A stretch of DNA of 64,000 nucleotides from positions 1-64,000 of IMG/VR virus record IMGVR_UViG_3300030098_004539; one strand, given 5' to 3'. Shown here one piece after another: positions 1 to 16,825 of the stretch (its first letter is position 1; the number at the start of each line of letters is the position of its first letter). Source of the DNA: a virus. A program made the position numbers and the translations under genes. Below the pieces are notes generated by a model that did not search any database, was not told the origin of the DNA, and was given only the letters and a program-made list of their open reading frames with translations.

Positions 1-780
1 AATGATGCTTCCGATGACGCTGATGTTGACGTTGTAAAAGATAAAGAGAGAAAGAAAGAAAGCCTATATAGGGCTGCAAGAGATAAAAGGTTAGCAGAGG
101 CGTTTGGTGTAAATCCTCGAACAGACATATATAGAGATGAATTACCTGAGTTTGAGGATTTCCCAGAACAACCTAGATATGGGGGAGAGAAAGGGCTTCC
201 TATTTGGAAAAAGACTTCTGACGAGAAGCAATATTACGCCAAAGATTGGGAAAAGAAAGAGCGCCCTATAAACAGCTTTAAGTCTTGGGTAGACGGGTTT
301 AGAAGTAGCTTGTCGGAACACAGAGAGTCGTTACTCGATAAGTATGGCATCCCTAAAAACTCTAGGAATCAAAATGCTGACCAAAAAGAGTTTTTAGACT
401 ATATTCGAGATTCTGAAAATCAGCTTAAAGAAGATATGGCTCGGAAACTACGTGAAGAGTCTGACGACTTTGGTGATTTATCAGATAAAGAACAACAACA
501 TATTCTAGGGTTAATAAAGAAATCCGTGGATAATAGTACGAGTCGGATCGGAGACGTAAGTATGCTAGGACTTTTCTTAGACATTAACCTGTTTAAAGCC
601 CTCCCTTTAGGGGAGTCTCAAAAAATTAAAGCGTTTAAAAATTCATTCGGACGCACCTCTAGTGGCGTAAACCCCCCTACGATGAATACGGGGGAGTTAG
701 AGGCTGAAGAAGAAAAAGAAGCAGAGCGCAAAGATAAGAAAGAGATGGAAAAGAGTCTTAATCTCTACGTGAGTTGTTAA
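1..780 (+). CDS. Partial (5' truncated) charged hypothetical protein, candidate internal head protein
   Basis: Frame 1 is open from base 1 to TAA at 778-780, so the 310 start in the ORF track is an edge artefact. Contains GLFLDINLFKA and MEKSL motifs. Confidence 0.75.
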   Translation, partial: NDASDDADVDVVKDKERKKESLYRAARDKRLAEAFGVNPRTDIYRDELPEFEDFPEQPRYGGEKGLPIWKKTSDEKQYYAKDWEKKERPINSFKSWVDGFRSSLSEHRESLLDKYGIPKNSRNQNADQKEFLDYIRDSENQLKEDMARKLREESDDFGDLSDKEQQHILGLIKKSVDNSTSRIGDVSMLGLFLDINLFKALPLGESQKIKAFKNSFGRTSSGVNPPTMNTGELEAEEEKEAERKDKKEMEKSLNLYVSC

Positions 781-781
781 A

Positions 782-3700
782 ATGAGTGACTACGAAGATA
801 TAAATAAAGGTTCTGAAGAAGGGTCTGGTGACTCCGCTGGCTCTGCCGGGGCTTTTAAGCCGCACGTACACGTCAAGCGAGGCATTAAAGATATCCAGCC
901 GATTAAGGGATCTTTTAAGCCTAAAAAGTGTGTTAAAACTGTGAGCTATCGTGGACGACCTCGGTACATCTGCCCCGCGTCTGGAGGAGAAACCGCAGTC
1001 CATAGTTTAGAGAATCTTCCTGTTAAACCAGAAGATACTCCGCGTAAATTAGCTGAAATTGCACAAACTGCCCCAGAACACTTAATTACTCCCAAAAGGC
1101 AACGAGAAGAGCCTCAAGAAGTACAAGCCGCTTTGAGAAACCGCCCCACAAGCATTCACTTACAGGATGTTGAAGAAGCCGGCCCAGATACAGAACATGA
1201 CCACCTACATTACCACTCTCCCAACGAGGCTACCGAGAAAGAATCGGATGCAATTATCTTAAAAGATAGTAAGCGCAAGTCTGGTGACGACGACGATGAC
1301 GGTGATGTCAAAAAAGGCCTGTTTATAACAGACTTGGTTAAGGGTAAGAAGCCTAAGATTGCTAAACCTATTAAGGCCCCTAAGAGGTCTAAACCTTCTT
1401 CTGGAAAAGCGCCTACTAAGAAAGCGCCTACTAAGAAAGCTCCTACTAAGAAAGCTCCTGGCGTCTACATTAAAGATGTTCGGCCCACTCTTAAGCCTCG
1501 TACTCAGGAGTCTAAAAAGAAGTTTAAAGACGATTTCCTTAATTTTCATCTTCGCCGCCCTAAGCAGAGTTCTTCTAAAGCGCCTGGTCGTAAATCAGAC
1601 CCTCTCGGCTCAATAATGCAGAGATTGCACCGCGACTATGGAGACAATTTTTTAAGTCCTGGTGCGGCCAAAAGGCCTTTAAGCTCTGCGGCCATACCTG
1701 TACCAGATTCGTACAGAGGAGGGGCGCTGACCGAAACAGAGAAGAAATACGGGAGAGGAGTTACGTCTAACTTTTTATCCGACAGTTCTAATCTTCCTGG
1801 CGGCGTTGCAAAACTCAAGAGCGGAGGGTTCATTGTTCCTGGAAAAGTAGGAATTCCTTTAGACGCCTTCTTTACATATAAAAAGCCTAAACAGTTTTTG
1901 TCGCAATTTTCTGATAAAGCTGTTTGGAGAGCAAAAATAACGCACGGCGCAGATCCCGTTAAGGGTCCTAAAATTTATAATAATTTAGAGGATGCGCTTG
2001 CGAGCCAGGAAGGTACTGAGTCAGAAGCAGACGAGTATATCACGCGGATTAACTGGAATGCGTTTAAAAAAGCTAATGACGGATTTACTCGCGGAGGAGA
2101 AGTACAATATCCAGAGTCTTTTAAAGTCCGTATTGGCCGGGAAGTAAAAACCGTACGTACTAGCGGTAAATGGTTTGGACGGTATGTTAAACCTTACTTT
2201 ACTCCAGGAAGGGACAGTTACGGTCGAAAGAAGATGGCTCCTGAGCAGGTTCTCAGTAAGTATATACGAGCAGTATACGATCGAGAAAATGAGCCGCCAC
2301 CAAAACCTGGTCGCGCCACCTTAAGGGCTGATAGAAAGAAGGGAACTTCTGGAGGCACGATAGATTCTGACGGAAATCTAAAGATTCGTACTCCTGCACA
2401 GTATGATGATCCTGGCGGTCGGAAGTTTGATCCTGCACCTCTTACGGATAAGGATTGGAAAGAAATCAAAGCTAGTATGGCTAAAAAGAAGGAAAAGGAG
2501 CTTAAGCGAGAAGCTGAGAGACGAGCGGAGGCGAAGCGACAAGGGCAAACTCCCGAAGCACAAAGAAAGTTTCGAGAAGAACTGAAGCGGATGAAGTATA
2601 CTCGGGAGCCTACTGTTGGAGAGTTTCTTTCTACTGTAGGCGAAGCTGCTTTATTTGTAGTAGATGCTCCTGTGATTGTTGGAGGTAAACTTGCTCAAAA
2701 AATTCCAACAGTTGCTCGCAATGCGGGCAAAGCTCTTGGTATTACCCTTAGTGCAGGTAAAGCTGCTGATGTAACACACAAAATGCGTACTGCCGTTATT
2801 GCGGTCTACAACAACGCCCAAGGGGTTAAAACGGCAATTTATGCAAAGACTGCTAAAGAAGCAGATAAGGTTCGAAAGCAGGTTGCAAATATGCCATCGT
2901 TTAACCGACTTGTCACTGCGGGAAGAGGAGGTGGTAAATCACCTATGCGCGTTGGCGTTACTAATCCTCGTCGTACAGCAAGAACTGCTGCACAGCGAAG
3001 AGCAGATGTTAGCCAACTTTACCCTACTGGTACTCCGTCACGCGTTCGTGTACCAAAAAAACGCCCCCCAACAAGAAAGAGTCCTAGCACCCCTTCACGC
3101 GTTCCTGACAAAATAAAGACACCGCCTAAGGCTAAACCTAAAAAGCCTACGGACAAACCTACACCTGAGCTTCCTCCTGTCCCTAAACCTACTAGGAGGC
3201 CTCCAGGATCTAAGCCTAAGCCTGTTCGTAGAAGGCGACAAGCACCTCGAAGAAGGCGTAAAGATACTCCTACAGAGAAGCCTCAGCAGAAGCCTACAGA
3301 TAAGCCGCAGCAGAAGCCGCAGCAGAAGCCTAAGGATAAGCCGCAGCAGAAGCCTAAGGATAAGCCGCAGCAGAAGCCTAAGGATAAGCCTAAGGGTAAG
3401 GATAAGCCTAAGGGTAAGGATAAGCCTAAAACTAGAAGCGCAATTAAACGCGCAGCTAGGCAATTACTCGCTGCTGATCGTGTTGAAGCTCCTGCAAAAG
3501 AAAAGCCTCCAAAGAGGGATAAAAAGAGAAAGAAAAAGAAGAAGAAGAGAAGAAGGTTTATTATTGCCGACGATAATCGTCGTATATATGAGGATACTCA
3601 ACGAAAAGAGGAGAAGGTTGCTCCTTTGCGCGAAGAGTTGCGACGAAAAGGTAGAAAGAAGGAAGAAGAGGAAGATGATGATTTAGCGGCCATCATCCGA

Positions 3701-3958
3701 AGAGCCAAAAAGAGACACCGACTTCAAACTTTAGATGATCGTTATTCTCAGATTGGTAAAGAAGGTAAACGCGACGTTGAAGATTTAGCTAGTCGCGCTG
3801 AGGCACGAGCTATGTTCTACAAAAGTCAGGCATTCATAGCCCCCTATGTACGGCAGGTTCGTAACAAGAAAATTTCTTTAAAAGAGGCTTTAGATAAAGT
3901 TCCTTGGTGGATGCAAGATGAGCTTTTAAGTCGATTACGAAGAAAGAAACGTCGCTAA
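782..3958 (+). CDS. Large Lys/Arg/Pro-rich low-complexity protein, candidate DNA-binding internal head protein
   Basis: 1058-aa ORF abutting the previous stop; KAPTK and KPQQKPKD repeats, poly-K/R runs, GLFITDLVKG motif. Confidence 0.7.
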   Translation: MSDYEDINKGSEEGSGDSAGSAGAFKPHVHVKRGIKDIQPIKGSFKPKKCVKTVSYRGRPRYICPASGGETAVHSLENLPVKPEDTPRKLAEIAQTAPEHLITPKRQREEPQEVQAALRNRPTSIHLQDVEEAGPDTEHDHLHYHSPNEATEKESDAIILKDSKRKSGDDDDDGDVKKGLFITDLVKGKKPKIAKPIKAPKRSKPSSGKAPTKKAPTKKAPTKKAPGVYIKDVRPTLKPRTQESKKKFKDDFLNFHLRRPKQSSSKAPGRKSDPLGSIMQRLHRDYGDNFLSPGAAKRPLSSAAIPVPDSYRGGALTETEKKYGRGVTSNFLSDSSNLPGGVAKLKSGGFIVPGKVGIPLDAFFTYKKPKQFLSQFSDKAVWRAKITHGADPVKGPKIYNNLEDALASQEGTESEADEYITRINWNAFKKANDGFTRGGEVQYPESFKVRIGREVKTVRTSGKWFGRYVKPYFTPGRDSYGRKKMAPEQVLSKYIRAVYDRENEPPPKPGRATLRADRKKGTSGGTIDSDGNLKIRTPAQYDDPGGRKFDPAPLTDKDWKEIKASMAKKKEKELKREAERRAEAKRQGQTPEAQRKFREELKRMKYTREPTVGEFLSTVGEAALFVVDAPVIVGGKLAQKIPTVARNAGKALGITLSAGKAADVTHKMRTAVIAVYNNAQGVKTAIYAKTAKEADKVRKQVANMPSFNRLVTAGRGGGKSPMRVGVTNPRRTARTAAQRRADVSQLYPTGTPSRVRVPKKRPPTRKSPSTPSRVPDKIKTPPKAKPKKPTDKPTPELPPVPKPTRRPPGSKPKPVRRRRQAPRRRRKDTPTEKPQQKPTDKPQQKPQQKPKDKPQQKPKDKPQQKPKDKPKGKDKPKGKDKPKTRSAIKRAARQLLAADRVEAPAKEKPPKRDKKRKKKKKKRRRFIIADDNRRIYEDTQRKEEKVAPLREELRRKGRKKEEEEDDDLAAIIRRAKKRHRLQTLDDRYSQIGKEGKRDVEDLASRAEARAMFYKSQAFIAPYVRQVRNKKISLKEALDKVPWWMQDELLSRLRRKKRR
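1406..1459 (+). repeat. 15-bp tandem repeat (about 3.5 copies) encoding KAPTK
   Basis: aaagc(g/t)cctactaag repeated in tandem. Confidence 0.9.
3278..3430 (+). repeat. Tandem 12/24-bp repeats encoding KPQQKPKD / KPKGKD
   Basis: aagccgcagcagaagcctaaggat units repeated. Confidence 0.9.
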
Positions 3959-3967
3959 AGGGATAAG

Positions 3968-4852
3968 ATGTCATCTTATAATCATCGGTCTTCTAAAAAA
4001 TTAGGTTGGACGCCTCAATGGTTTGGTGTGTCTGAGTTTGGAGACGATCTTCAAGAAGCTATTAAAGAGTTCCAAGGGGAATATGAAGACTTAAAAGTAG
4101 ACGGAATGTGTGGTCCGGTTACTTACCGGAGAATAAAGTTAGAAAGGGACACACAAGACATTGGTCCCTCTCACGGAGAGAAGATATTAATAGGTGGAAA
4201 ACTGTTTCCTATACCTTGGGATAAAGTAATAATTCCAGGGGAGAATGGAGCTTTAGAGTTAACTAAAGGTTTTCGCCGTAAAAAAGACCGATATATAAAT
4301 ATGGTCATTACACACTGGGATGTCTGCACCTCTGCTAAAAAGTGTAGGAATGTTCTTGCCGCTAAGAATATATCGACACACTTTTGTATCGACTGGGATG
4401 GCACTATCTATCAGTTTATGGATGTGATGCACGAGGGGTGGCATTCTGGGGTAGGTAAGATCAACCGACAGAGTGTTGGAATCGATTTGAATAACCCAGT
4501 TTATACAAAATATAATAAAATTTTGGTAAAACGAGGACAACCAGAACGGCCTGTGATAAGCGGTTATAGTATTAATGGTTGGAAGCCGAAGGAATTTTTA
4601 GGTTTCCATCAAGTACAAATTGATGCTTATATAGCTTTATTGGCTGGGTTAAATGCCCACTTGCCTGATTTAAACCTAATTCCTACTGGCGATACGGGAA
4701 ATCCCAAAGTGATCAAGACTATTCCTTTGGCTAAAGCCGCTTCTGAGGGCGGCGTAATGCACCATGCCCATGTAAAGAAGCGTAAGTGGGACACAGCAGG
4801 GGTTCACCTGTCCGAGTGCTGTGAAGCTGCTAAAGGGTTAGTTGTAGAATGA
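3968..4852 (+). CDS. Endolysin: N-terminal peptidoglycan-binding domain plus Amidase_2 (N-acetylmuramoyl-L-alanine amidase)
   Basis: IKEFQ...LKVDGMCGPVT (PG_binding_1-like); ITHWD, ISTHFCID.DGTIYQ, GWHSG..NRQSVGID, HHAHV..KWD (amidase_2-like). Confidence 0.85.
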   Translation: MSSYNHRSSKKLGWTPQWFGVSEFGDDLQEAIKEFQGEYEDLKVDGMCGPVTYRRIKLERDTQDIGPSHGEKILIGGKLFPIPWDKVIIPGENGALELTKGFRRKKDRYINMVITHWDVCTSAKKCRNVLAAKNISTHFCIDWDGTIYQFMDVMHEGWHSGVGKINRQSVGIDLNNPVYTKYNKILVKRGQPERPVISGYSINGWKPKEFLGFHQVQIDAYIALLAGLNAHLPDLNLIPTGDTGNPKVIKTIPLAKAASEGGVMHHAHVKKRKWDTAGVHLSECCEAAKGLVVE

Positions 4853-5973
4853 GGCTTTATCTAGACATAGACTTGTATAAGGCTGCTTCTGGGCCACCCT
4901 CTGAGGAGTATGAATTTTCTCCTCTGCGATTTAGTGGGTTGCCCCCCACTAAAGCTAATATAGATGAGCAGATATGGGTGGCTGCTCAAAAGTACGACAT
5001 ACCTGAAATTTATGATGCGCTTGTTGCTACCGCTAAACAGGAATCTGGCAGAACTCATTGGAGGAATCGTGGTAGGGGTAAGATTATTACGAGTCCTACG
5101 GACGCTCAGGGTGTTATGCAGTTAATGGCACGGACTGCTCGGGGGTTGGGTGTAGACCGTAAGGACTGGCGACAAAATATTTGGGGCGGTGTTAAGCTAT
5201 GGAGTATTAATTACAAGCAGGCTCTTAAGTCTGGTATGTCGCCTTCAGATGCTGTGGATTACGCAGCTATGGCTTATTATTCTGGCGGTGCGGGGGGTAA
5301 AGATCCTTCACAAAATACCAGTGCGGTAGAGGTACATAACCAGCGAGCGTTAGCTCGTCACAGACGTAAAAACCCAAACGCAACTATTTGGGACGTTCCT
5401 AGTAGCCAATTAAAGGGTGCGCCTAGTCAAGTATCTAAGTTTGGTGGTATTAAAAACTGGCGTAAAAATATGCAACGGGCCATGTCTCGGGGTGCTGGTA
5501 TTGATTCAACTACTGGCAAGAAGACATTTGGTGGTGCATTAGACAGGTACGCGAGAGGTATTAAGCGTCGTAGTGAGGCAGATCGTCACTATGTTCGTGT
5601 AGGTAAAGATAGAGCCCAGGCCGAAAGGCATGGGCTTAAGGGGTATACTGAAAGAGATAGCTCAGGTCGAGGGATTGCTAGTATGCCTATTAGGCAGACA
5701 ATGGCGAGGCCGGAAGACTTACGCCCTACGCCTTCTAAGCCTAAGTCTGTAGCGTCTGAGGGTTTGTATTTAAAAAGTCCTGTAGCTGCCCCTGCTAGGA
5801 AACAGGCTGAGACTAAGCGTGTTGCTGGACTAGACGCTGCCAGTAAAGATTTAGGTCTTCCGGCTCCGTCTAAAGTGTTAAGTAGACAACCTAAGTCTGT
5901 TGCGGTTCAGCCTCGACCTCCGGTTAAAGTTAGTAAGTCGTTATTTCAATCAGAATATTTTATTGAGGTATAA
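4849..5973 (+). CDS. SLT-family lytic transglycosylase with basic disordered C-terminal tail
   Basis: AKQESG catalytic Glu motif, AQGVMQLM..TA, NIWGG, AMAYYSG; ATGA overlap with the endolysin gene. Confidence 0.85.
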   Translation: MRLYLDIDLYKAASGPPSEEYEFSPLRFSGLPPTKANIDEQIWVAAQKYDIPEIYDALVATAKQESGRTHWRNRGRGKIITSPTDAQGVMQLMARTARGLGVDRKDWRQNIWGGVKLWSINYKQALKSGMSPSDAVDYAAMAYYSGGAGGKDPSQNTSAVEVHNQRALARHRRKNPNATIWDVPSSQLKGAPSQVSKFGGIKNWRKNMQRAMSRGAGIDSTTGKKTFGGALDRYARGIKRRSEADRHYVRVGKDRAQAERHGLKGYTERDSSGRGIASMPIRQTMARPEDLRPTPSKPKSVASEGLYLKSPVAAPARKQAETKRVAGLDAASKDLGLPAPSKVLSRQPKSVAVQPRPPVKVSKSLFQSEYFIEV

Positions 5974-5975
5974 AA

Positions 5976-8045: not shown

Positions 8046-8047
8046 CT

Positions 8048-9139: not shown

Positions 9140-9149
9140 GAGAATTAAC

Positions 9150-9560: not shown

Positions 9561-9563
9561 GAA

Positions 9564-10184: not shown

Positions 10185-10357
10185 ACGTAGATTTTGAAAT
10201 TAATACCGTCAATATTTTGACAGGAGCGCTCAGAAAATCTCTTTCTGAACAAGACGATCCTGCAATGATTGCTATTAAATTATCTTTAATTAAAAGCGAC
10301 GTACAAAATATTAACGATGTAGAGAGATTGTTTAACAGGTTTTCAGTAGATGACTAA
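10181..10357 (+). CDS. 58-aa hypothetical protein, below the ORF-track size cutoff (MNVDFEINTVNILTGALRKSLSEQ...)
   Basis: ATGA overlap with the upstream stop; fills the gap and overlaps the next start; contains LRKS and LIKS. Confidence 0.7.
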   Translation: MNVDFEINTVNILTGALRKSLSEQDDPAMIAIKLSLIKSDVQNINDVERLFNRFSVDD

Positions 10358-10799
10358 TAACCACCTTACAGACCAGCAAATACAGGAGCATTTAGATACG
10401 TTGTCTAAGTCTAAATCTCTAGAAAGCTACTGTAATAACTGCGGAGACTGCTGTAGCCCCAGTGTATTGGTTAAAAGTACTAGAACTTCTCCTTTTAAAG
10501 TACTAGTTAAAGATTTAAAGTGTAAGTTCAGTAAGTCTGTTAACGGAGACAATACGTGTACCGTGTATAATGAGAGATTCAATAAGGCTCCCTGGTGTTT
10601 AGACCTTAAGGGTATGATTAAGGGTGGAGTAGCCCCGCTACATTGCCCTTATGTAGAGACCTTGAAGGGTTATAGCCCTACGTTAGAGTTAAATGACCCT
10701 CAATATAAGACTGTATTACCTCTTCTTAAGAAAGCAGTCTCGGAGGGAGATGTTTCTCCTTTTGCCTCGTTAGACATTAAGACATTTTTAGGAGATTAA
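10350..10799 (+). CDS. YkgJ-like CxxCxxCC putative Zn/Fe-S-binding protein
   Basis: YCNNCGDCC...LKCKF...TCTVYNER...WC pattern typical of the CxxCxxCC family. Confidence 0.8.
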   Translation: MTNNHLTDQQIQEHLDTLSKSKSLESYCNNCGDCCSPSVLVKSTRTSPFKVLVKDLKCKFSKSVNGDNTCTVYNERFNKAPWCLDLKGMIKGGVAPLHCPYVETLKGYSPTLELNDPQYKTVLPLLKKAVSEGDVSPFASLDIKTFLGD

Positions 10800-10800
10800 G

Positions 10801-11913
10801 ATGAGTTACTGGGATGCATCGTGTGACTTTCTTATTAAGAGTTTAGAAGATCTTAATAAAGCGAAACCTAAGCGGTCTAGTAAAACGCAATCTACTCCGG
10901 TTGATTCGCCGCAAACTAAGCTGAGTGAGTTTGAGAAGCAAACTCAAAAGTTTAAACCCGCAGATGCGAAAAAAGTTCATATAGGTGTGGAAGATCGTGC
11001 GAGGTTAAAAGCGGCCAAGGCCGGAACAACCTTTACACCTAAGCAGGGGGGTTCTGCTGGGAGGACGTTTACGGTCGTACCGTCTAAGTCGAAAGGTACG
11101 CCTCCTACTAAAAAAGAACGTATTGAGCTTGGACCACAGCCTCGTAGCTCACCAAATTATCGCCTGCAACCTGCCGGGGAAAAGGCTAGAGAACAGCGTA
11201 AGAGCCCTATCATGGATATGGTTATGGAAGGGAGGGATGACTCAGAAAAAGAATCTGTTTGGCCACAGGGTTTTAAATCTGCTGACACCTGGAACAAAAA
11301 AGTAAAAAAAGACTGGGACGAGGAAAAATCAAGTATATTGGATCACCTTTGGGGCGGAAGTAAGCAAACACGGAAACCGCCAGCACAGTTTGGTGCATAT
11401 GCTGACTTTAAAGAAAAAGCTAAAGAGTATCTTGGTAACAAGGCCGATAAATACTATTCGGGCATAAGATCTGGATCTGGTGGTGAAGGTAAATTTGGCG
11501 AGCTTACCGCTAAACAGAAAGCGATGATGGCGATCATAAAGCGCATGCCAAAGCATCAGCAAGATAGGATTAGAGATCACCATATAAAGCTAATGACGGG
11601 ACAAAAGTTGTCTCCGGCAGGAATTCGTACCAGGGTAGCGGCGCAAGTTGGAGCGTTTCAAAACCCAGAAGAGTTGAATAAATATGGTTGGGCGTATTTT
11701 AACCCTGATGTAGCTCAAATTATCGCGGTTAATTCTCTCACTGAGGGCGCTAGGAGGGCTTCGTCCGCCATTAAGAATATTGGTAGTGCGGTGGGTGAGA
11801 TTCTTTTTCAAAAAAATAGCAGTAAAAAACCTCGTCGCTTAAAAGCCTATAAAACTAAAAAGGAATGGGGACCCTCCGGGACCGATTTTGGAGACGACGA
11901 CTGGAAGCGGTGA
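10801..11913 (+). CDS. Basic hypothetical protein, paralog 1
   Basis: GGAG RBS; N-terminus MSYWDASCDFLIKSLEDLNKAKPK resembles the next gene. Confidence 0.75.
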   Translation: MSYWDASCDFLIKSLEDLNKAKPKRSSKTQSTPVDSPQTKLSEFEKQTQKFKPADAKKVHIGVEDRARLKAAKAGTTFTPKQGGSAGRTFTVVPSKSKGTPPTKKERIELGPQPRSSPNYRLQPAGEKAREQRKSPIMDMVMEGRDDSEKESVWPQGFKSADTWNKKVKKDWDEEKSSILDHLWGGSKQTRKPPAQFGAYADFKEKAKEYLGNKADKYYSGIRSGSGGEGKFGELTAKQKAMMAIIKRMPKHQQDRIRDHHIKLMTGQKLSPAGIRTRVAAQVGAFQNPEELNKYGWAYFNPDVAQIIAVNSLTEGARRASSAIKNIGSAVGEILFQKNSSKKPRRLKAYKTKKEWGPSGTDFGDDDWKR

Positions 11914-11926
11914 AGGAGTAATTAAG

Positions 11927-13057
11927 ATGAGTTTTTGGGACGATTCGTCAGAAATTTTGACTAAAAGTTTAGAACCGATGGTTAAGGCTAAACCTAAACC
12001 TAGGAAGCTGTCTGGGTTTGAGCAAAGCACGCTTGACTACAAGGACAAAGACAGCCCATCGGTTCATATGGGAGTAAAGGATCGCGCTCGACTAAAAAGG
12101 GTAACACCAACGTTCCCAATTGGCCCCGCAGGTAGCGGTAGTACTTTTACTCCTCAAGAAGGTGGATCTCAAGGCAAGACGCGGGTCGTTACAGACCGAA
12201 CCCCCGAAAAGGGTAAAATCCCTAGTGCTGAAGACTGGGCAAGACTCGGAAAGAAGGCGGCGGATGCAGCAAGTTTAGGGTTCAAAAAATTAAAACAGGA
12301 TGTGAAATCTGCGAATCCGCGCAGACTGAAAAAAGAAAGAATTATCAAAAAGGATACGGAAGAGGCTAAAGGCGTTAAACCGATGTCAGGCGCTGCCGAA
12401 GTAGTGAATAAAAAGACACGAGAGCAACACGAGAAAGACTCTCCCGGTTTCGGTAGTTTTCTTTTAGCCGCGTATGGGGCCGACGACCCTAAGAGCCCCA
12501 GAAGAGAAACTTTGCGTAAATTAAGTAACCTCGATAACGCAAAGTTTCGTAGGAATGTAGCCAAAAAGTTAGAAAACTCTTTAAATAACTTTAAACGGTA
12601 CCTAACAGGCAAAACTTCCGATGGAATTTTTGGTAAACCGCTTACTAGAGCACAAAAAAAGATAGGTGAGGTGTTTGAAGCGTTGCCTGAAAGTAAGAAA
12701 AAGAAAATTGCTGCACTGTACGCCGACAAACCTATGAGTTGGGGTGACTCCCTTACGGATTCCAGTTGGACTAAACCTCTCGGAAAGCTCGGAAATATTG
12801 AAAATCTAAGCGAAATGGGTGTCAAAACTCGCGCCAGAGGGGCAGCAGGATTAATTCAGTCAGAAAGAGACATCGGATTGATCCCACTTATGTTCAACCC
12901 AGACATGCACGCGTATCTAAACAATAGACCTTCGCCGGAAGGTCGCGCAGTTGCTCCTCTCCCAACAAAAAAGATGCGGAACCAATTTCAGTACTCGCCT
13001 AAATCGTTTCCTAAAGGCAAAAGCAGCTTCTCCATTAAAGAGCCTAAAAAGAGTTAA
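11927..13057 (+). CDS. Basic hypothetical protein, paralog 2 (start reassigned from 11888)
   Basis: ATG at 11927 follows AAGGAG; MSFWDDSSEILTKSLEPMVKAKPK aligns with the paralog 1 N-terminus. Confidence 0.75.
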   Translation: MSFWDDSSEILTKSLEPMVKAKPKPRKLSGFEQSTLDYKDKDSPSVHMGVKDRARLKRVTPTFPIGPAGSGSTFTPQEGGSQGKTRVVTDRTPEKGKIPSAEDWARLGKKAADAASLGFKKLKQDVKSANPRRLKKERIIKKDTEEAKGVKPMSGAAEVVNKKTREQHEKDSPGFGSFLLAAYGADDPKSPRRETLRKLSNLDNAKFRRNVAKKLENSLNNFKRYLTGKTSDGIFGKPLTRAQKKIGEVFEALPESKKKKIAALYADKPMSWGDSLTDSSWTKPLGKLGNIENLSEMGVKTRARGAAGLIQSERDIGLIPLMFNPDMHAYLNNRPSPEGRAVAPLPTKKMRNQFQYSPKSFPKGKSSFSIKEPKKS

Positions 13058-13066
13058 GGATAAATA

Positions 13067-13840
13067 ATGTCAGATGAGACTTTAAATTTTAAATTTTGGA
13101 TGCCTTTAAGTAAGGCAAAGGCGTCTAAAGATGGAAAAGCGAGGATTATCGAAGGGATTGCCTCTACTCCAGACTTAGATCTTCAAAATGAACGGGTAAA
13201 CCAGTCCGGTATTAACTTTGATTACTTTATTAATCATGGATATTTTAACTGGGACCATAAATCTGGAGCAGAAAACAAGATTGGAGAACCTTGGGAGGTT
13301 AAAGTCACCCCTAAAGGGCTTTACGTTAAAGGTATTATTTACAAAGGTAAAAAAGTTGCCGATGACGTATGGGAACATATTCAGTCTTTAGCTCAAAATC
13401 CCGGATCTAAGAGAAAAGTGGGCTTTTCTCTCCAAGGAAAGACAGTACGGCGTAATGGAAACAGCATTTTAAAGTGCTGGCTGCAAGATATTGCCATTAC
13501 TACTGCCCCAATTAACTACAATACGTACTTAGACGTTGTTAAATCCTTCAGTAAATATGAGTGGGTAAACTCTGAACTAGAGAAGACTCTTTCTGCGGGC
13601 TACGGGCACGCAGGAGGCGGCGCACTCGTTCCAGAATCTCTCGACGATAAAGAACGAGATTTAAAATATGGGGATAAAAAAGACGGTAGGAACCCTGGTA
13701 ATAAAAATAATAAAATTATTACAAAGAAAAGTCTTGCCAATCTCATACAACGTCATTTAGGTTACTCAAAAGATACTTCTGGACAACTTTCAGACGTTAT
13801 CTTCCGCATGTCAGACATTAGGAGAAAACAGAATGGCTAG
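13067..13840 (+). CDS. Prohead (capsid maturation) protease
   Basis: IIEGIASTPDLDLQNE, GYFNWDH, IGEP, GLYVKG, GFSLQG, IAIT..PIN; located upstream of scaffold and capsid genes. Confidence 0.92.
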   Translation: MSDETLNFKFWMPLSKAKASKDGKARIIEGIASTPDLDLQNERVNQSGINFDYFINHGYFNWDHKSGAENKIGEPWEVKVTPKGLYVKGIIYKGKKVADDVWEHIQSLAQNPGSKRKVGFSLQGKTVRRNGNSILKCWLQDIAITTAPINYNTYLDVVKSFSKYEWVNSELEKTLSAGYGHAGGGALVPESLDDKERDLKYGDKKDGRNPGNKNNKIITKKSLANLIQRHLGYSKDTSGQLSDVIFRMSDIRRKQNG

Positions 13841-14603
13841 TCAAATCACACCGATGCAGCCTGGAAATCATCAGCCGATGGGCGTTGATTGGGCTGGCAC
13901 CGACGTAGAGAGTGAAGAGAACGCAGAAGACCGCGATAGCATGCCTAACGGCACAGACTATAAGCCGGTTAAAAAGAGTTATCGTCTTTACAAGTCTCTT
14001 ATCCAAGATGAAGACCTTTTAAAGGCTATGGATGAAGACGAAGAAGAGAAGGAAAAGCACTTTGAAGGTGCTATGAAGGACGATAAAGACCATATCGCTG
14101 CTTTAGAGCGAGATGAAGAGGAAGAGAAGCGGGACGAAGAAGACGCCAAAATGCGTAAGTCTTTCTTTGAGGTAGTAGAAGAGAATCCTGTTCTCCTAAA
14201 AGGAATTTCTAGCTCACCGTTCTTGTACGAGATGGTCAAATCCATCGGATACTCTTTCCTTAACTTAGAAGACCAGATTGGTACTCAGATGCTGCAAATG
14301 GACATGCATCATGACCAGTTTGCTAAGAGTGTCGATGGCGTTTTTGAAAATATGAGCAAAAGCTTAGGTTTCATTAATGACACGGCTGATCAAGTTGATA
14401 TGCACAAGTCTGTAAGTGCGGATGGAAATGTGCAGTATCTTGAGAAGGGTAACTTCAGCGGTGAGGCCGGTCCTTCTCAAGGACAAGTTCTTCAGGCCCT
14501 TGTTAAGGGTGTTGAAGCCGGTCACATTTCGCCCACGGAAGTGATTAAATTTGAAACTACTGGGGCGGTATCTCCGCATATCCAGAAAAGCCTTGGATTA
14601 TAG
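13833..14603 (+). CDS. Scaffold-like protein A
   Basis: Acidic and helical; lies between protease and capsid; about 11 hydrophobic-x-K[SAG] motifs. Confidence 0.7.
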   Translation: MASQITPMQPGNHQPMGVDWAGTDVESEENAEDRDSMPNGTDYKPVKKSYRLYKSLIQDEDLLKAMDEDEEEKEKHFEGAMKDDKDHIAALERDEEEEKRDEEDAKMRKSFFEVVEENPVLLKGISSSPFLYEMVKSIGYSFLNLEDQIGTQMLQMDMHHDQFAKSVDGVFENMSKSLGFINDTADQVDMHKSVSADGNVQYLEKGNFSGEAGPSQGQVLQALVKGVEAGHISPTEVIKFETTGAVSPHIQKSLGL

Positions 14604-14614
14604 GAGAGATTAAG

Positions 14615-15376
14615 ATGTCTGACGGAATGTACGAATCAGAGATTCTAAAGTCGTTAGAGGCTTTAGATGAGATTCTGTCGAAAGCTAATCCTCATGTTCA
14701 AAATCTACAACCTGGAAATCATCAGCCTATGGGTGTTGATTGGGCCGGTACAGATGTAGAGAGTGAAGAGGATGAAAGCTACGCTGGTCACATCGCTGAG
14801 AATGGAACGGATTACGATCCTCCCAAGAGCGGTGGAAAGAAAAAGAAAAAGATGAGCAAGGCTTTCGAGGAAGCAGAAGAAAAAGAAGAGTTTGAAGAAG
14901 ACGAAGACGAAGACGAAGACGAGATGGACAAGGGGTATGGCTACGGCAAGTCCAGCGGGATGTCCAAAGGTGTCGAAGTCAGCGAGTTTCTTCACGAGCT
15001 TACGAAGTCTGTAGCTATTTACTGCTACGAATTAGAAGGCTTAATTACTAAGTCTTTAAATCAGATTCACGAGGAAAACGGTGCGATGTCGAAAGCTATC
15101 GCTGAAAACCTCGTCGCTCTAAACGATATTATCTCTAAATCACAAGATAATATCAATGAATACGCGGAGGGTCCTGCTCGGGGTCCGAAGAGTATGCTCG
15201 ATATGAGCAAGTCTATTTCTGGTTCGCAAGAGCCGGAGTTGTCCAAGAGTGTTGTTATCGGCGCTCTTATGAAAGGTGTTGAGGCTGGCACGGTTTCTCC
15301 TCTTGAGATCATCAAGGTGGAGCAGTTCGGCGTTCAAGCCATTAATCAAGATGTCGTCAAAAGTCTTTTAGCTTAG
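14615..15376 (+). CDS. Scaffold-like protein B (paralog of A)
   Basis: Shares QPGNHQPMGVDWAGTDVESEE and ALxKGVEAG.xSPxExIK with A; about 13 hydrophobic-x-K[SAG] motifs. Confidence 0.7.
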   Translation: MSDGMYESEILKSLEALDEILSKANPHVQNLQPGNHQPMGVDWAGTDVESEEDESYAGHIAENGTDYDPPKSGGKKKKKMSKAFEEAEEKEEFEEDEDEDEDEMDKGYGYGKSSGMSKGVEVSEFLHELTKSVAIYCYELEGLITKSLNQIHEENGAMSKAIAENLVALNDIISKSQDNINEYAEGPARGPKSMLDMSKSISGSQEPELSKSVVIGALMKGVEAGTVSPLEIIKVEQFGVQAINQDVVKSLLA

Positions 15377-15394
15377 GAACTAGGGAGAATTTAA

Positions 15395-16825
15395 ATGGTA
15401 CCTCAAATTAGCTTAGGAGACTACGACGGGCTGAACGGGTTCGGAACATCAACTACGGGAGATGTTAACGAACTGTCTAAGGCACTTAGCGCGGGATATC
15501 AGGTCTCTAATCAGACTGGTGGGTCTGCCCTTCGCGTTGAGAGTCTGGAAGCCAGCCTGAAAGTAGTCACATGGTCCAACAAACACATCAAGCTCTGGAA
15601 GAAGATTCCGAAGAGCCCAGCGTACTCAACGGTTGAGGAATACAACGTCCTTAGCCAGTACGGTGCAGCCGGAGCCTTTGGCTTCACGCGAGAGGGAGAG
15701 CTTCCTGGTACTCAGGACAGCACTTACACTCGTATGACTGCACTGGTGAAGTTCATTGGAACGACTCGTTCTGTGACTCACCCAGCTACGTTGGTTAATC
15801 CGGCACACGGAGATGTTATCGCTCTGGAGAACCAGAACGGTATCCTTTGGATGTTGGAGCGTGTTGAGGATTCACTCTTCCACGGTAACTCTGGTCTTGC
15901 CTTTGATGGTGAAGCAGAGCAGTGGGATGGTCTGGATGCTCTCATCAATAACGCTAACGTTATTGACCTTGAGGGACAGCCTCTTCAAGAAGCTGACATC
16001 GAAGAAGCCTCTAACTTGGTCATTGAAAACTACGGTTACCCCACGGACATGTTCCTTGGTACCCGTGCGATGAGTGACCTCGTCAAGACCTTCTACCCCC
16101 GCGAGCGCGTGAATATGCCTGCTCCTTCGGAAGGTAAGGTTGGTCTGTCGGTTACCTCGATGGCTACGCAAGCTGGAACGATTGAGTTCAACCCTGACGT
16201 CTTTATTCGTCAAGGTAAGCAGCCTCCTGCGGCTGCTACGAGCGCTAACGCTCCTGCTACTCCGGCGGCTATTGTTAACGGTGGTGCTGCTGGTACTGCA
16301 AGCTGGGCGAAGTCGCTTGGTGCTGCTGCTGGTGGATTTTCCTACGCAGTGACTGCATGTAACCGGTTTGGTGAGTCCGCTCCCGTTCTTTCGGCAACAT
16401 ACAATGTTGGCGCTGGATCGACGACGGCTAACGGTATTCAGGTTACTAACGCTGCTGCGATTGGTGCAAATCCTCCTGAGTTCTTTATCATCTACCGTAC
16501 GCGGAACATTGGTTCCGGTGGTGCAGCACCTGCGGACCTTTCTCAGTACAGTGAGATTGCTCGCGTGCGTTGTACCAACCAGGGCGCTGGTGTGATGGGT
16601 GTTCAAGCTCAAGACCTCAACGCTACTATGCCCTTCACGGAAACGGCTTACTTGGGAGAGCTTACCCCTTCGGTGCTCACCTTCCGTCAGCTTGCTCCTC
16701 TGATGCGTATGGATCTCGCGGTTCTGGCTCCTGCCTACCGTTGGATGATTATGCTCTACGGTACGCCTATCCTGTTTGCTCCGCGCAAGTGGGTCCGGTT
16801 GACCAATATTGGTCGCCTTAGCTAG
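15395..16825 (+). CDS. Major capsid protein (SPO1/Twort-like)
   Basis: LSKALSAGY..GSALRVESLE, STVEEY, WDGL..LI...NVIDL.G, GELTP, LAPLMRMDLA, YG.PIL.AP.KW; codon bias typical of high expression. Confidence 0.95.
   Translation: MVPQISLGDYDGLNGFGTSTTGDVNELSKALSAGYQVSNQTGGSALRVESLEASLKVVTWSNKHIKLWKKIPKSPAYSTVEEYNVLSQYGAAGAFGFTREGELPGTQDSTYTRMTALVKFIGTTRSVTHPATLVNPAHGDVIALENQNGILWMLERVEDSLFHGNSGLAFDGEAEQWDGLDALINNANVIDLEGQPLQEADIEEASNLVIENYGYPTDMFLGTRAMSDLVKTFYPRERVNMPAPSEGKVGLSVTSMATQAGTIEFNPDVFIRQGKQPPAAATSANAPATPAAIVNGGAAGTASWAKSLGAAAGGFSYAVTACNRFGESAPVLSATYNVGAGSTTANGIQVTNAAAIGANPPEFFIIYRTRNIGSGGAAPADLSQYSEIARVRCTNQGAGVMGVQAQDLNATMPFTETAYLGELTPSVLTFRQLAPLMRMDLAVLAPAYRWMIMLYGTPILFAPRKWVRLTNIGRLS

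What the first reader, a model, noticed from the sequence alone, without database searches (positions are those of the whole stretch)
1..15500. Candidate protease-addressed internal-head cargo system: many ORFs share the capsid maturation motif hydrophobic-x-K/[S,A,G]
Seen: the capsid N-terminus has ELSK/ALSAGY, and the two scaffolds carry about 11 and 13 copies of the motif (LYKS, MVKS, MSKS, LTKS, LSKS, VVKS...). The motif also sits near the N- or C-terminus of most unannotated ORFs here: 1-780 (LFKA, MEKS), 782 (LVKG), 4849 (LYKA, VSKS), portal (LDKA, LAKG), 8048 (FNKSLFKSVSLSKA), 9564 (VFKG), 10181 (LRKS, LIKS), 10350 (LSKS), 10801 (LIKS, LNKA), 11927 (LTKS, MVKA). Established: Twort-like capsids are matured by cleavage after a Lys in a K/S context, and T4 and phiKZ package protease-trimmed internal proteins. 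Inference: about ten basic proteins are loaded into the prohead, trimmed by the 13067 protease, and either condense DNA or are ejected into the host.
Basis: partly seen in the sequence, partly recalled or inferred. Interest (0 to 1): 0.85.

Follow-up and report, generated by a model that had tools for sequence, protein, structure and literature searches.

The report
Lysine cut-site tags on phage head proteins
An uncultured 128-kb phage related to SPO1/Twort-like viruses marks most proteins of its head gene cluster with the likely cutting motif of its head protease, so it probably loads and trims internal proteins much as phage T4 does, though nothing has been measured.

Summary
By count against within-protein shuffles, [LIVMFY]xK[SAG] is enriched in only 5 of 15 head-cluster ORFs: both scaffolds (12 and 14 sites, about 1.5 expected), 8048, 10350 and 10181. 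By position the signal is broad. A site lies in the first 35 residues of 12 of 15 cluster ORFs, against 17 of 123 elsewhere (p=2.6e-7).

The capsid site LSK|ALSAGY aligns with the first residue of a deposited phi812-type capsid chain. SPO1-like and Twort-like scaffolds are equally site-rich.

Two longer leaders are shared by unrelated proteins. One of them also heads a 3097-aa DdrB-ParB-type giant just upstream of the window. All 35 homologues of ORF 9564 keep the leader.

Best reading: these are cut sites of a Lys-specific head protease. They work together with T4/P1-like capsid-targeting leaders on basic internal proteins. The multi-site proteins are probably degraded rather than delivered. 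Cleavage and packaging are untested.

The scan has noted comparable leader systems on other DNA, including one SPO1-like rumen phage.

The parts
1..780 (+). 3' part of a 649-aa ORF that starts at genome position 126887, across the contig junction. It carries an internal class-1 leader-like element LFLDINLFK|A (nt 571-597) about 60 residues from the C-terminus, and MEK|SLNLYVSC at the very end.
   Evidence: Orthologues in L011 and L013 keep the element at 674/740 and 892/968. In L012 it heads a separate 394-aa ORF.
782..3958 (+). 1058-aa very basic protein (pI 10.3, net +126) with an internal leader-like LFITDLVK|G ending at residue 187 (nt 1340-1342). Everything after that point is strongly basic.
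   Evidence: No Pfam, PHROG or NCBIfam match. No count enrichment (5 observed vs 6.4 expected).
3968..4852 (+). PG_binding_1 plus Amidase_2 protein, a likely endolysin. It has no N-terminal site and is not part of the tagged set.
4849..5973 (+). SLT lytic transglycosylase, basic (pI 10.2). It has the class-1 leader MRLYLDIDLYK|A (nt 4849-4881) and a C-terminal VSK|SLFQSEYFIEV.
   Evidence: Pfam SLT 22.2 bits (cut-off 21.3) and phrog_342 'internal virion protein with endolysin domain'. Leader seen. Orthologues MLYLKDDIYK|G (L002) and VFLDTDLYK|A (L011).
5976..8045 (+). Portal protein with N-terminal sites LDK|A (residue 6) and LAK|G (residue 26).
   Evidence: phrog_12 E 4e-51 and Pfam Phage_portal. 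The site at about residue 20-27 is present in L010, L011, L012, L013 and L005. No count enrichment.
8048..9139 (+). 363-aa basic, largely disordered protein with 9 sites (2.6 expected). Tandem sites FNK|SLFK|SVSLSK|A and VSK|SLFK|S bracket a 171-residue basic cassette and are encoded by a DNA repeat at 8203-8240 and 8746-8783. The C-terminus has a Cys/His cluster.
   Evidence: Orthologues are also enriched: 7 vs 1.7 and 5 vs 1.5. The Atlas model has pLDDT 0.46.
9150..9560 (+). 136-aa basic protein of unknown function with no N-terminal site.
9564..10184 (+). 206-aa basic protein with the class-1 leader MPKGLYILDDVFK|G (nt 9564-9602). The N-terminal half is disordered and the C-terminal helical domain is confidently modelled.
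   Evidence: 35 of 35 homologues keep the FK|[GA] site. K13 is invariant and F12 at least 90% conserved in 33 aligned sequences. AF2 pLDDT is 85-93 for residues about 100-190. No fold match.
10181..10357 (+). 58-aa acidic protein with 2 sites (LRK|S, LIK|S), which would be cut into thirds.
   Evidence: The first site is kept in 4 of 4 aligned sequences.
10350..10799 (+). 149-aa CxxCxxCC (YcgN-like) cysteine-cluster protein with 6 sites (0.8 expected).
   Evidence: NCBIfam YcgN 33.9 bits and Pfam CxxCxxCC 16 bits, both below cut-off. 4-6 sites are kept in 10 of 10 close homologues. Site richness is absent from distant family members.
10801..11913 (+). 370-aa basic protein (pI 9.9) with the class-2 leader MSYWDASCDFLIK|SLEDLNK|A (nt 10801-10860).
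11927..13057 (+). 376-aa basic paralogue (pI 10.1) with the class-2 leader MSFWDDSSEILTK|SLEPMVK|A (nt 11927-11986).
   Evidence: Orthologues in L002, L004 and L012 keep W...L.K|[SGA].
13067..13840 (+). Prohead protease of the SPO1/Twort type. It has invariant His64 and Ser121, an N-terminal site LSK|A (K16), and the invariant internal site VVK159|S160 (nt 13541-13546). Its C-terminal tail resembles the mature capsid N-terminus.
   Evidence: phrog_1028 E 6.6e-51. tblastn matches 766 phage records, mostly Herelleviridae. Alignment. Tail vs capsid: 16/38 identical, E 0.001.
13833..14603 (+). Acidic scaffold 1 with 12 sites. Predicted fragments are 4-48 residues.
14615..15376 (+). Acidic scaffold 2 with 14 sites. 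Its N-terminus resembles the class-2 leader (ESEILK|SLEALDEILSK|A). Predicted fragments are 4-59 residues.
15395..16825 (+). Major capsid protein. The predicted 29-residue propeptide ends at LSK29|A30 (cut between nt 15481 and 15482).
   Evidence: phrog_752 E 1.8e-106. PDB SPO1 Gp6.1 E 3.7e-109. The 439-aa chain of 9row/9rox/9roz starts at the residue aligned to A30. L27 and K29 are invariant in 5 sequences.

Best explanation
Hydrophobic-x-Lys followed by Ser, Ala or Gly is the recognition and cutting site of this phage's SPO1/Twort-type prohead protease (ORF 13067). The head cluster encodes three kinds of substrate.

(1) Core parts, as in other phages of the group. The capsid protein loses 29 N-terminal residues. 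Two acidic scaffolds are chopped into peptides of 4-59 residues. The protease trims itself, and the portal is perhaps trimmed too.

(2) Small proteins with many sites (8048, 10181 and the cysteine-cluster protein 10350). These most likely sit in the prohead core and are cut up during maturation.

(3) Proteins with a single N-terminal leader ending in the site.
- Class 1, L-[YF]-[LI]-x3-[LV]-[FY]-K|[AG], is found on the SLT transglycosylase 4849, on 9564 and on a 3097-aa DdrB-ParB-type giant upstream of the window. It also occurs internally in the first ORF and in the 1058-aa basic protein.
- Class 2, W-x(7-8)-L-x-K|S, is found on the paralogues 10801 and 11927.

These leaders probably act like the T4 and P1 capsid-targeting sequences. 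They bring the protein into the prohead core, the protease removes them, and the mostly basic mature proteins stay with the DNA and can leave with it at infection.

Shown here: the statistics, the conservation and the homology of the capsid site. Inferred: cutting, packaging and ejection.
For: Enrichment and context of the sites
- Count enrichment in 5 ORFs against shuffles.
- N-terminal position enrichment: 12/15 vs 17/123, and 14/18 vs 16/120 with the extended cluster.
- In the five enriched ORFs, P3 is L or M in 29 of 43 sites, P1' is Ser in 29 of 43 and P2' is V, L or I in 26 of 43.
- 12 of 21 and 16 of 23 scaffold Lys are followed by S, A or G, against 122 of 535 in tail ORFs.

Conservation in relatives
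- Orthologues in IMG/VR loci show the same enrichment.
- They also show the same N-terminal sites: 47/67 against 11.7 expected, compared with 2/23 downstream of the capsid gene.
- Motif Lys are kept more often than other Lys of the same proteins: 104/140 vs 68/132.

Link to the known capsid maturation site
- The capsid site aligns with residue 1 of the 439-aa phi812-type chain, which is the 463-aa chain of 5lii minus its first 24 residues, i.e. it starts after VVK.
- CP-51 and Remus scaffolds and proteases are also site-rich: 13 vs 1.4, 8 vs 1.15, 9 vs 1.7 and 6 vs 1.4.

Shared leaders
- The leader regex gives 6 hits in 138 ORFs, all in the cluster. The mean of 300 shuffles is 0.08.
- The giant ORF's leader is kept in 2 of 2 homologues at 38-40% identity.
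- 35 of 35 homologues of 9564 keep FK|[GA].

Nature of the tagged proteins
- The tagged proteins are basic.
- The SLT domain matches a PHROG of internal virion proteins.
- A homologue of the giant ORF carries ddrB-ParB at 42 bits, in a region that aligns to the giant ORF.

Precedents in print
- P1 DarB lies just before the portal and protease genes (ORFs 10, 11 and 12 in the paper's protein table) and is targeted by its first 30 residues (PMC9024508, passages).
- T4 capsid-targeting sequence (PMC3012670, passages).
- SPN3US A-x-E propeptides, including the portal and the protease tail (PMC10052503, passages).
Against: - There are no proteomic, N-terminal or structural data for this phage or any close relative. 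All relatives are metagenomic.
- The leader regex was written after seeing the sequences, although the giant ORF's copy was found afterwards.
- Orthologues are not independent samples.
- Sites inside folded domains may be inaccessible. Examples are 10350 and the protease segment LYVKGIIYK|G.
- The deposited 439-aa chain shows where its depositors began the sequence. I did not read the paper behind it.
- One 70-aa ORF far from the cluster (87106) is also site-rich, so false positives occur.
Confidence: 0.6

Rival explanations
1. The motif is a true protease site only in the capsid protein, the scaffolds and the protease, as in all SPO1/Twort-like phages. On this view the N-terminal elements on the accessory proteins are docking or chaperone-binding motifs, or shared ancestry of short N-terminal modules. 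They are not cut, and the proteins need not be in the virion.
For: - The accessory ORFs 782, 4849, 9564, 10801 and 11927 have no count enrichment.
- Invariance of F12 and K13 in the 9564 family shows constraint, not cleavage.
- N4 virion RNA polymerase is packaged unprocessed (PMC5512222, passage), so targeting without cutting has precedent.
Against: - Both leader classes end in exactly P3-hydrophobic, P1-Lys, P1'-small, the rule seen at 43 scaffold-type sites.
- That ending is the most conserved part of the leaders.
- Class 2 is shared with the N-terminus of a scaffold that carries 14 sites.
Confidence: 0.17
2. All the extra proteins between portal and protease, and perhaps those upstream, are transient prohead-core or scaffold components. 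They are fully degraded and expelled, so nothing is delivered to the host.
For: - 8048, 10181 and 10350 carry 9, 2 and 6 sites, and would be cut to pieces of 4-171 residues.
- Site richness in the YcgN-like lineage is not tied to position: observed/expected is 34/8.3 in the ten closest representatives and 32/26 in the farthest tier. That is what would be expected for disposal sites.
Against: - The leader-bearing proteins have one or two N-terminal sites, and long site-poor bodies.
- An SLT wall-cutting domain and a DdrB-ParB-type giant make sense only if they reach the next host (PMC5512222 and PMC9024508, passages).
Confidence: 0.15
3. The pattern is a by-product of Lys-rich, Ser-rich low-complexity composition or of helical repeat periodicity, with no signal function.
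For: The cluster proteins have 8-15% Lys, against 2-5% in tail proteins. The pooled non-enriched cluster ORFs give 28 observed vs 23.5 expected.
Against: - Within-protein shuffles keep composition and still give z of 4-10 in 5 ORFs.
- Shuffles predict 2.9 N-terminal sites in the cluster, where 12 are seen.
- P2 varies while P3, P1 and P1' are kept across orthologues.
Confidence: 0.04
4. The motif marks lysines that are modified, for example methylated, by the CxxCxxCC protein 10350.
For: A YcgN-like cysteine-cluster protein sits in the middle of the cluster.
Against: - CP-51 and Remus have equally site-rich scaffolds and proteases. Their annotated portal-to-capsid intervals hold only portal, protease, scaffold and capsid genes, with no such protein.
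- 10350 itself is studded with the motif.
- The capsid site coincides with a mature N-terminus.
Confidence: 0.03

Closest known systems
Phage T4 capsid-targeting sequence on internal proteins IPI-III and Alt, removed by prohead protease gp21
   Same: Unrelated proteins share a short N-terminal leader that ends in the head protease's P3-x-P1 rule. The cargo is basic and travels with the DNA. The scaffold core is cut to small peptides (PMC3012670, passages; the gp21 rule L/I-x-E is recalled).
   Different: - P1 is Lys, not Glu.
- The protease belongs to the SPO1/Twort group. It had no Pfam or PDB sequence match, and no relation to gp21 was tested.
- There are two leader classes.
- Leader-like elements also lie inside two large proteins.
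- The cargo includes a 3097-aa protein.
Phage P1 Dar system (DarB, DdrB, DarA, Hdf) and 'polyvalent proteins'
   Same: A giant protein is encoded upstream of the portal and protease genes, in P1 immediately before them (ORFs 10-12 in that paper's protein table). It has an N-terminal targeting signal (the first 30 residues of DarB suffice). The giant ORF's family carries a DdrB-like ParB domain (PMC9024508 and PMC5512222, passages).
   Different: - The window phage's own ParB hit is below threshold: 17 bits vs 27.6.
- No DarB-like methylase or helicase domains were detected.
- The P1 signal is not reported to end in a protease motif.
phiKZ/SPN3US head maturation (gp175/gp245, A-x-E)
   Same: Many head proteins, including the portal, lose N-terminal propeptides at a three-residue motif. 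Long propeptides hold several sites. The protease removes its own C-terminal tail (PMC10052503, passages). Here the matching features are the invariant VVK|S160 in the protease and the conserved portal site.
   Different: The genome is 128 kb rather than a jumbo genome. The P1 residue and the capsid lineage differ. No virion RNA polymerase was recognised.
Canonical Herelleviridae head module (SPO1, CP-51, phage K/phi812/Remus)
   Same: Homologous capsid protein (42-47% identity to the listed Bacillus phages, SPO1-like ones included), protease and portal. Same capsid site, and site-rich scaffold and protease.
   Different: - In CP-51 the portal gene is followed directly by the protease. In Remus the portal reading is interrupted by a transposase gene but also runs up to the protease. 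Here seven ORFs lie between them.
- There are two scaffolds instead of one.
- About 6000 codons of large tagged or basic ORFs lie upstream.
- ORFs 9564 and 10350 have no tblastn match in 50,697 phage records.

Membership tests
SPO1/Twort-type (Herelleviridae-like) head module | Homologous major capsid protein | tested here: met
   tblastn gives 782 phage records, the best at 42-47% identity over 93-97% of the query. PDB SPO1 Gp6.1 E 3.7e-109 and phi812 E 3e-36.
SPO1/Twort-type (Herelleviridae-like) head module | Homologous prohead protease with conserved catalytic-type His and Ser | tested here: met
   phrog_1028 E 6.6e-51. 766 records, mostly annotated prohead or head maturation protease. His64 and Ser121 are invariant in 5 aligned sequences. 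Their catalytic role is inferred, not shown.
SPO1/Twort-type (Herelleviridae-like) head module | Capsid propeptide removed after a Lys at the homologous position | tested here: inconclusive
   The 439-aa deposited chain starts at the residue aligned to A30, right after K29. K29 is invariant. Cleavage in this phage is not measurable here.
SPO1/Twort-type (Herelleviridae-like) head module | Portal gene directly followed by protease, one scaffold, then capsid gene | tested here: not met
   Seven ORFs (8048-13057) lie between portal and protease, and there are two scaffolds. In CP-51 the portal gene is directly followed by the protease. In Remus the portal reading, interrupted by a transposase gene, also runs up to the protease.
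T4-like capsid-targeting / internal-protein system (functional class) | Shared N-terminal leader on otherwise unrelated proteins, ending in the head protease's motif | tested here: met
   Class 1 on 4849, 9564 and the giant ORF; class 2 on 10801, 11927 and scaffold 14615. The leaders are conserved in homologues.
T4-like capsid-targeting / internal-protein system (functional class) | Leader is sufficient to load a protein into the prohead and is cut off there | not testable with these tools
   This needs reporter fusions and virion analysis in a cultured host. None is known.
T4-like capsid-targeting / internal-protein system (functional class) | Mature proteins present in virions and ejected with the DNA | not testable with these tools
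   There are no proteomes. All relatives are metagenomic.
T4 gp21 protease family (sequence membership) | Sequence or fold relation of the protease to gp21 | tested here: inconclusive
   No Pfam hit. No PDB sequence hit at E<=1. The single-sequence AF2 model was unusable, pLDDT 37.8.
Polyvalent / P1 DdrB-like packaged proteins | DdrB-like ParB domain (PF18763) | tested here: inconclusive
   The giant ORF scores 17 bits, below the 27.6 cut-off, at residues 2198-2260. Its homologue P0046 scores 42 bits at 1990-2066, inside a block that aligns to giant residues 2092-2593 at E 1.6e-49.
YcgN / CxxCxxCC cysteine-cluster family (ORF 10350) | Match to the family models above the curated cut-off | tested here: not met
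   NCBIfam best is 33.9 bits vs a cut-off of 170. Pfam gives 16 vs 23. The Cys pattern is present and 178 representatives match at E<=0.001, so it is a distant relative only.

The most novel reading that the evidence does not exclude
An uncultured lineage with an SPO1/Twort-type head has built a T4/P1-style delivery system on a Lys-specific protease. A short docking code would load more than 6000 residues of distinct cargo into the head. The cargo would include a 3097-aa DdrB-ParB-type polyvalent protein, a 1058-aa protamine-like DNA-condensing protein released from a mildly acidic (pI about 6) N-terminal pro-region, a wall-cutting transglycosylase and several basic proteins.

The code itself may be copied from the protease. 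The class-1 leader resembles the protease's own conserved segment KGLYVKGIIYK|G, and the protease tail mimics the mature capsid N-terminus. Protease, cargo and shell would then share the same docking surfaces.
Probability: 0.2. Interest if true: 0.75.

Novelty: new variant of a known kind. Interest (0 to 1): 0.55.

Why it matters
If confirmed, leader-addressed, protease-trimmed head cargo would extend from T4-like, phiKZ-like and P1-like phages to a lineage with the SPO1/Twort head, with Lys instead of Glu at the cut site. It would also give a simple sequence rule for finding virion-delivered proteins in uncultured phages: hydrophobic-x-Lys|small residue within about 20 residues of the start, in the head cluster.

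There is a practical warning for proteomics. Trypsin also cuts after Lys, so standard virion proteomics cannot see these maturation sites. That may be why none were found in print for this group.

The family-wide site-rich scaffolds and the capsid-like tail of the protease are testable ideas about how SPO1/Twort-type proheads are emptied and how the protease gets inside.

Tried and rejected
Searches that found nothing
- Megablast of 11-17 kb against 50,697 phage records gave no match.
- tblastn of 10350 and of 9564 against the same records gave no match.
- ORFs 1-780, 782, 8048, 9150, 9564, 10181, 10801 and 11888/11927 had no match in PHROGs or Pfam. The subset also sent to NCBIfam (782, 8048, 9564, the protease, the giant ORF and the 933-aa ORF) had none there either. 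At E<=10 the only extra Pfam rows were chance-level.
- The 1058-aa ORF 782 showed no similarity to the similarly sized CP-51 gp28 (best E 1.3).
- The giant ORF had no PDB sequence match, no PHROG match and no NCBIfam match.
- Its first 400 residues found no relative in IMG/VR.

Structure work
- The protease was folded without an alignment and the model was unusable (pLDDT 37.8).
- The 9564 model has a confident C-terminal domain, but Foldseek found nothing at E<=0.001 in PDB (best 1.2) or BFVD (best 0.18).
- The Atlas search for 8048 gave no usable hit. All structure rows had TM below 0.3.

Literature
- I found no paper in the held library on the Lys cut site, on multi-site scaffolds or on leader-tagged cargo in SPO1/Twort-like phages.
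- Passages checked in PMC5923470, PMC12282133, PMC3601020, PMC5646251 and PMC6266503 said nothing on it.
- The library lacks most subscription journals and supplements were closed, so this does not show that such work is not in print.

Ideas rejected
- Lysine modification by 10350 (see rivals).
- The idea that the sites of 10350 are a feature of the YcgN fold. Only 2 of its 6 site columns recur in distant homologues.
- The site-rich 70-aa ORF at 87106 as cargo. It lies far from the cluster and I treat it as a chance hit.

Full report
What the DNA is.
The window is the first half of a single 128,195-base IMG/VR virus contig. Its last 139 bases repeat its first 139 with one mismatch, so it can be read as a circle of about 128,056 bases. 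All large ORFs of the window are on the + strand. The capsid protein (15395-16825) is 42-47% identical to those of the listed Bacillus phages (CP-51, SP-10, SPO1-like isolates) and matches 782 phage records, nearly all Herelleviridae. It also matches the solved SPO1 and phi812 capsid proteins. The portal (5976), a protease (13067, phrog_1028, E 6.6e-51) and two scaffold-like proteins (13833 and 14615, phrog_15087) are recognisable. An amidase (3968) and an SLT transglycosylase (4849) lie upstream. The ORFs at 1-780, 782, 8048, 9150, 9564, 10181, 10801 and 11888/11927 match nothing in PHROGs or Pfam, and ORF 10350 gives only sub-threshold Pfam and NCBIfam matches. No nucleotide-level relative exists among 50,697 phage records. 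The closest relatives are metagenomic contigs.

The observation, by count.
Over 45 window ORFs and 141 genome ORFs, the two scaffolds stand far out, with 12 vs 1.3 and 14 vs 1.6 (z about 10). They are followed by 10350 (6 vs 0.8), 10181 (2 vs 0.2) and 8048 (9 vs 2.6). Five of the six highest z-scores in the genome lie between portal and capsid gene. The sixth is a 70-aa ORF at 87106. The other ORFs of 1-15.4 kb are not enriched (28 vs 23.5 pooled), and neither is the rest of the genome (151 vs 136.7).

The observation, by position.
A site ends within the first 35 residues in 12 of 15 ORFs from 782 to the capsid gene, against 17 of 123 elsewhere. Shuffles predict 2.9 and 17.9 (Fisher p=2.6e-7). 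With the cluster extended upstream (see below) the figures are 14 of 18 against 16 of 120. The result holds for every cut-off from 15 to 50 residues and with ATG-only starts. The C-terminal enrichment is marginal, 5 of 15 vs 15 of 123. Paralogue pairs (10801/11927 and the two scaffolds) reduce independence somewhat.

What the site looks like.
The five enriched ORFs contain 43 sites. P3 is Leu or Met in 29, P1' is Ser in 29 (Ala 7, Gly 7), P2' is Val, Leu or Ile in 26, and P2 is variable. In the scaffolds 12 of 21 and 16 of 23 lysines are followed by Ser, Ala or Gly, against 122 of 535 in sixteen tail ORFs. Cutting at every site would reduce the scaffolds to peptides of 4-59 residues.

Link to a known maturation site.
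The capsid site is ...NELSK29|A30LSAGY. A PDB capsid chain of 439 residues (entries 9row, 9rox, 9roz) has the sequence of the 463-residue phi812 capsid protein (5lii) without its first 24 residues. It begins at the Ser after VVK, and that Ser aligns with A30 of the window protein. L27 and K29 are invariant among the window phage, two metagenomic relatives, CP-51 and Remus.

The trait is shared by the whole group.
In Bacillus phage CP-51 the protein between protease and capsid gene has 13 sites (1.4 expected, z 10) and the protease has 9 (1.7 expected). In Staphylococcus phage Remus the figures are 8 (1.15 expected) and 6 (1.4 expected). In five aligned proteases His64, Ser121 and an internal V158-K159-S160 are invariant. 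After that site, the tail of the window protease resembles the mature capsid N-terminus: 16 of 38 residues identical, E 0.001. The protease PHROG also touches capsid residues 28-73. Site-rich scaffolds are therefore not special to this phage. What is special is the set of additional tagged proteins. In CP-51 the portal gene is followed directly by the protease, and in Remus the transposase-interrupted portal reading also runs up to the protease, whereas here seven ORFs intervene.

Conservation in relatives.
Eleven IMG/VR loci were fetched with the protease and portal as queries. Scaffold, 8048-like and 10350-like orthologues are enriched in every locus that holds them. In six loci, 47 of 67 ORFs from portal to capsid gene carry an N-terminal site (11.7 expected), against 2 of 23 downstream ORFs (2.7 expected). 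In alignments P3, P1 and P1' are kept while P2 varies. Motif lysines are kept in 104 of 140 orthologue cells, against 68 of 132 for other lysines of the same three proteins (the cells are phylogenetically linked).

Longer shared leaders.
Beyond the four-residue rule, unrelated proteins share longer N-terminal elements. Class 1 is MRLYLDIDLYK|A on the SLT protein and MPKGLYILDDVFK|G on 9564. Internal copies are LFLDINLFK|A, about 60 residues from the end of the first ORF, and LFITDLVK|G at residue 187 of the 1058-aa ORF. A regex written from these gives 6 hits in 138 ORFs (40,039 residues), all within the cluster, against a mean of 0.08 and a maximum of 2 in 300 shuffles. The regex is post hoc. 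One hit was new: a 3097-aa ORF at genome 117592-126885, just upstream of the first ORF, starts MSANLYLDSKLFK|G. Its only two long homologues, at 38-40% identity over about a fifth of the length, start MSANLYLKPELFK|G and MSANLYLSSSLFK|G. All 35 database homologues of 9564, down to 43% identity, keep [IVLF]-F-K|[GA] at about residues 10-13. In a 33-sequence alignment K13 is invariant and F12 is at least 90% conserved. The element in the first ORF recurs at the same relative place in L011 and L013, and heads a separate ORF in L012. Class 2 is MSYWDASCDFLIK|SLEDLNK|A (10801) and MSFWDDSSEILTK|SLEPMVK|A (11927). It resembles the start of scaffold 14615 (ESEILK|SLEALDEILSK|A) and recurs in orthologues. 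The sixth regex hit is a conserved segment inside the protease itself, KGLYVKGIIYK|G, which CP-51 has as KGLYVEGELFK|G. I record that resemblance without an explanation.

What the tagged proteins are.
Basic proteins (pI 9.5-10.3):
- the 933-aa ORF at 114749 (net +86);
- 782 (net +126, almost all of it after residue 187);
- 4849, 8048, 9150, 9564, 10801 and 11927.
The giant ORF is acidic (pI 5.6) and the scaffolds have pI 4.4-4.6. ORF 4849 has an SLT domain and matches a PHROG named internal virion protein with endolysin domain. The giant ORF has only a sub-threshold ddrB-ParB hit of 17 bits. Its homologue P0046 has that domain at 42 bits, plus an FtsK-gamma domain, inside a block that aligns to giant residues 2092-2593. 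DdrB of phage P1 is a head-internal protein, and such 'polyvalent' proteins are predicted to be packaged (PMC5512222, passages). ORF 9564 has a disordered N-terminal half and a confident helical C-terminal domain with no fold match. ORF 8048 is predicted disordered. Two tandem-site blocks, encoded by a DNA repeat 543 bases apart, bracket a 171-residue basic cassette that orthologues lack.

The cysteine-cluster protein as a test case.
ORF 10350 is a distant YcgN/CxxCxxCC relative. A full-library search gave 178 representatives at E<=0.001. I analysed the 126 of the 150 listed that are 95-200 residues long. Observed vs expected site counts are 34/8.3 for the ten closest, 45/11.0 for ranks 11-30, 19/10.6 for ranks 31-60 and 32/26.0 for the rest. 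Of the top 30, 10 are individually enriched. Only two of the six site columns recur in distant members, and in the enriched relatives the sites lie at other positions. Site richness is therefore a lineage trait that moves along the sequence, not a fold feature. That fits disposal by a protease better than it fits a structural motif.

Mechanism proposed.
The protease cuts after Lys in hydrophobic-x-Lys|small. As in its relatives, it trims the capsid protein, itself and perhaps the portal, and destroys the scaffolds. Multi-site proteins (8048, 10181, 10350) are probably core components that are cut up. The 171-residue basic piece of 8048 may survive. Leader-bearing proteins are probably docked to the core through the leader, trimmed and retained. 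The internal elements in the first ORF and in 782 would release a C-terminal peptide and an N-terminal pro-region. Precedents are the T4 capsid-targeting sequence (PMC3012670), the first 30 residues of P1 DarB (PMC9024508), and the SPN3US propeptides, which include the portal and the protease tail (PMC10052503). None of the cutting, loading or ejection steps is shown here.

Rivals.
Chance or composition is excluded for the enriched ORFs and for the N-terminal pattern. It remains possible that the leaders dock without being cut, or that all the accessory proteins are disposable and nothing is delivered. Together I give those two about one chance in three. Lysine modification by 10350 is unlikely, because CP-51 and Remus show the same motif load without such a gene in their portal-to-capsid interval.

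Novelty and standing.
The kind of system is known from T4, phiKZ/SPN3US and P1. New here are its occurrence on an SPO1/Twort-type head with a Lys rule, the two leader classes, the internal leader copies and the size of the presumed cargo. Ten literature searches found no description for this phage group, within a library that lacks most subscription journals. The scan itself has noted many comparable leader systems on other genomes. Of the eight shown, one is in a rumen SPO1-like phage, which I did not test. Other notes on this same genome describe the class-1 leader, the SLT leader, the 19-base repeat, the cysteine-cluster protein and the basic 1058-aa ORF. I checked those points as cited above.

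Limits.
- The protease fold was not obtained.
- Supplements were closed.
- The host is unknown.

Noticed in passing
G000:C1:117592-126885 (outside the window; L008:7593-16886): 3097-aa acidic ORF immediately upstream of the ORF that runs into the window. It starts with the class-1 leader. It has a sub-threshold ddrB-ParB hit, and its homologue P0046 has ddrB-ParB (42 bits) and FtsK_gamma. Apart from a 240-residue block (28% identity, E 5e-11) in the long 5'-open ORF of L012, the search of near-length proteins (1703-5420 aa) found only two homologues.
   Followed up: partly
G000:C1:114749-117550 (L008:4750-7551): 933-aa very basic ORF (net +86) with 13 motif sites vs 5.8 expected (z 3.1). Its first 44 residues match phrog_2423, a 52-position family of unknown function.
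   Followed up: partly
window 13574-13681 vs 15470-15583: The protease tail after the invariant VK|S site (ELEKTLSAGY...GGGALVPESL) resembles the mature capsid N-terminus (ELSKALSAGY...GGSALRVESL). The same holds in CP-51 and Remus. It may be how the protease enters the prohead.
   Followed up: partly
window 13313-13348: The conserved protease segment KGLYVKGIIYK|G resembles the class-1 leader (compare KGLYILDDVFK|G of 9564). K83, G84, L85 and K93 are invariant in five proteases.
   Followed up: no
window 13857-13919 and 14708-14770: The two scaffolds share a nearly identical stretch, QPGNHQPMGVDWAGTDVESEE. They are partial paralogues, whereas CP-51 and Remus have one scaffold gene.
   Followed up: no
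window 16998-17228: 76-aa protein with 25% Lys (pI 10.4), made of AKK/PKA-type repeats, directly after the capsid gene. It has no motif sites. Orthologues are present in relatives.
   Followed up: no
window 18176-22354: 1392-aa Ala/Gly/Ser-rich ORF. Residues 979-1054 match phrog_1620 'Hdf-like antirestriction' (E 2.6e-10). It has zero motif sites vs 4.4 expected.
   Followed up: no
window 7562-7857: The portal C-terminal region is encoded by tandem 18- and 45-base repeats (Gln/Glu/Pro/Ala-rich).
   Followed up: no
window 9000-9139: The C-terminus of 8048 has a conserved Cys/His cluster (C..C...H.GCC..C...W H..H), kept in L002, L004 and L005.
   Followed up: no
G000:C1:87106-87318: 70-aa ORF far from the head cluster with 3 motif sites vs 0.28 expected (z 5.4). 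I treat it as a chance hit.
   Followed up: no
L004 4889-5650, L010 5590-6350, L011 11815-12500: In three relatives no ORF of 50 aa or more equivalent to scaffold 1 was called between the protease and scaffold 2. The scaffold 2 ORF extends upstream in frame. This could be gene loss, a frameshift or an assembly error.
   Followed up: no
G000:C1 ends: The contig's last 139 bases repeat its first 139 with one mismatch, so the record classed as linear (CheckV 77%) may be a complete circle or a terminally redundant genome. There is a run of 10 N at 82619-82628.
   Followed up: partly
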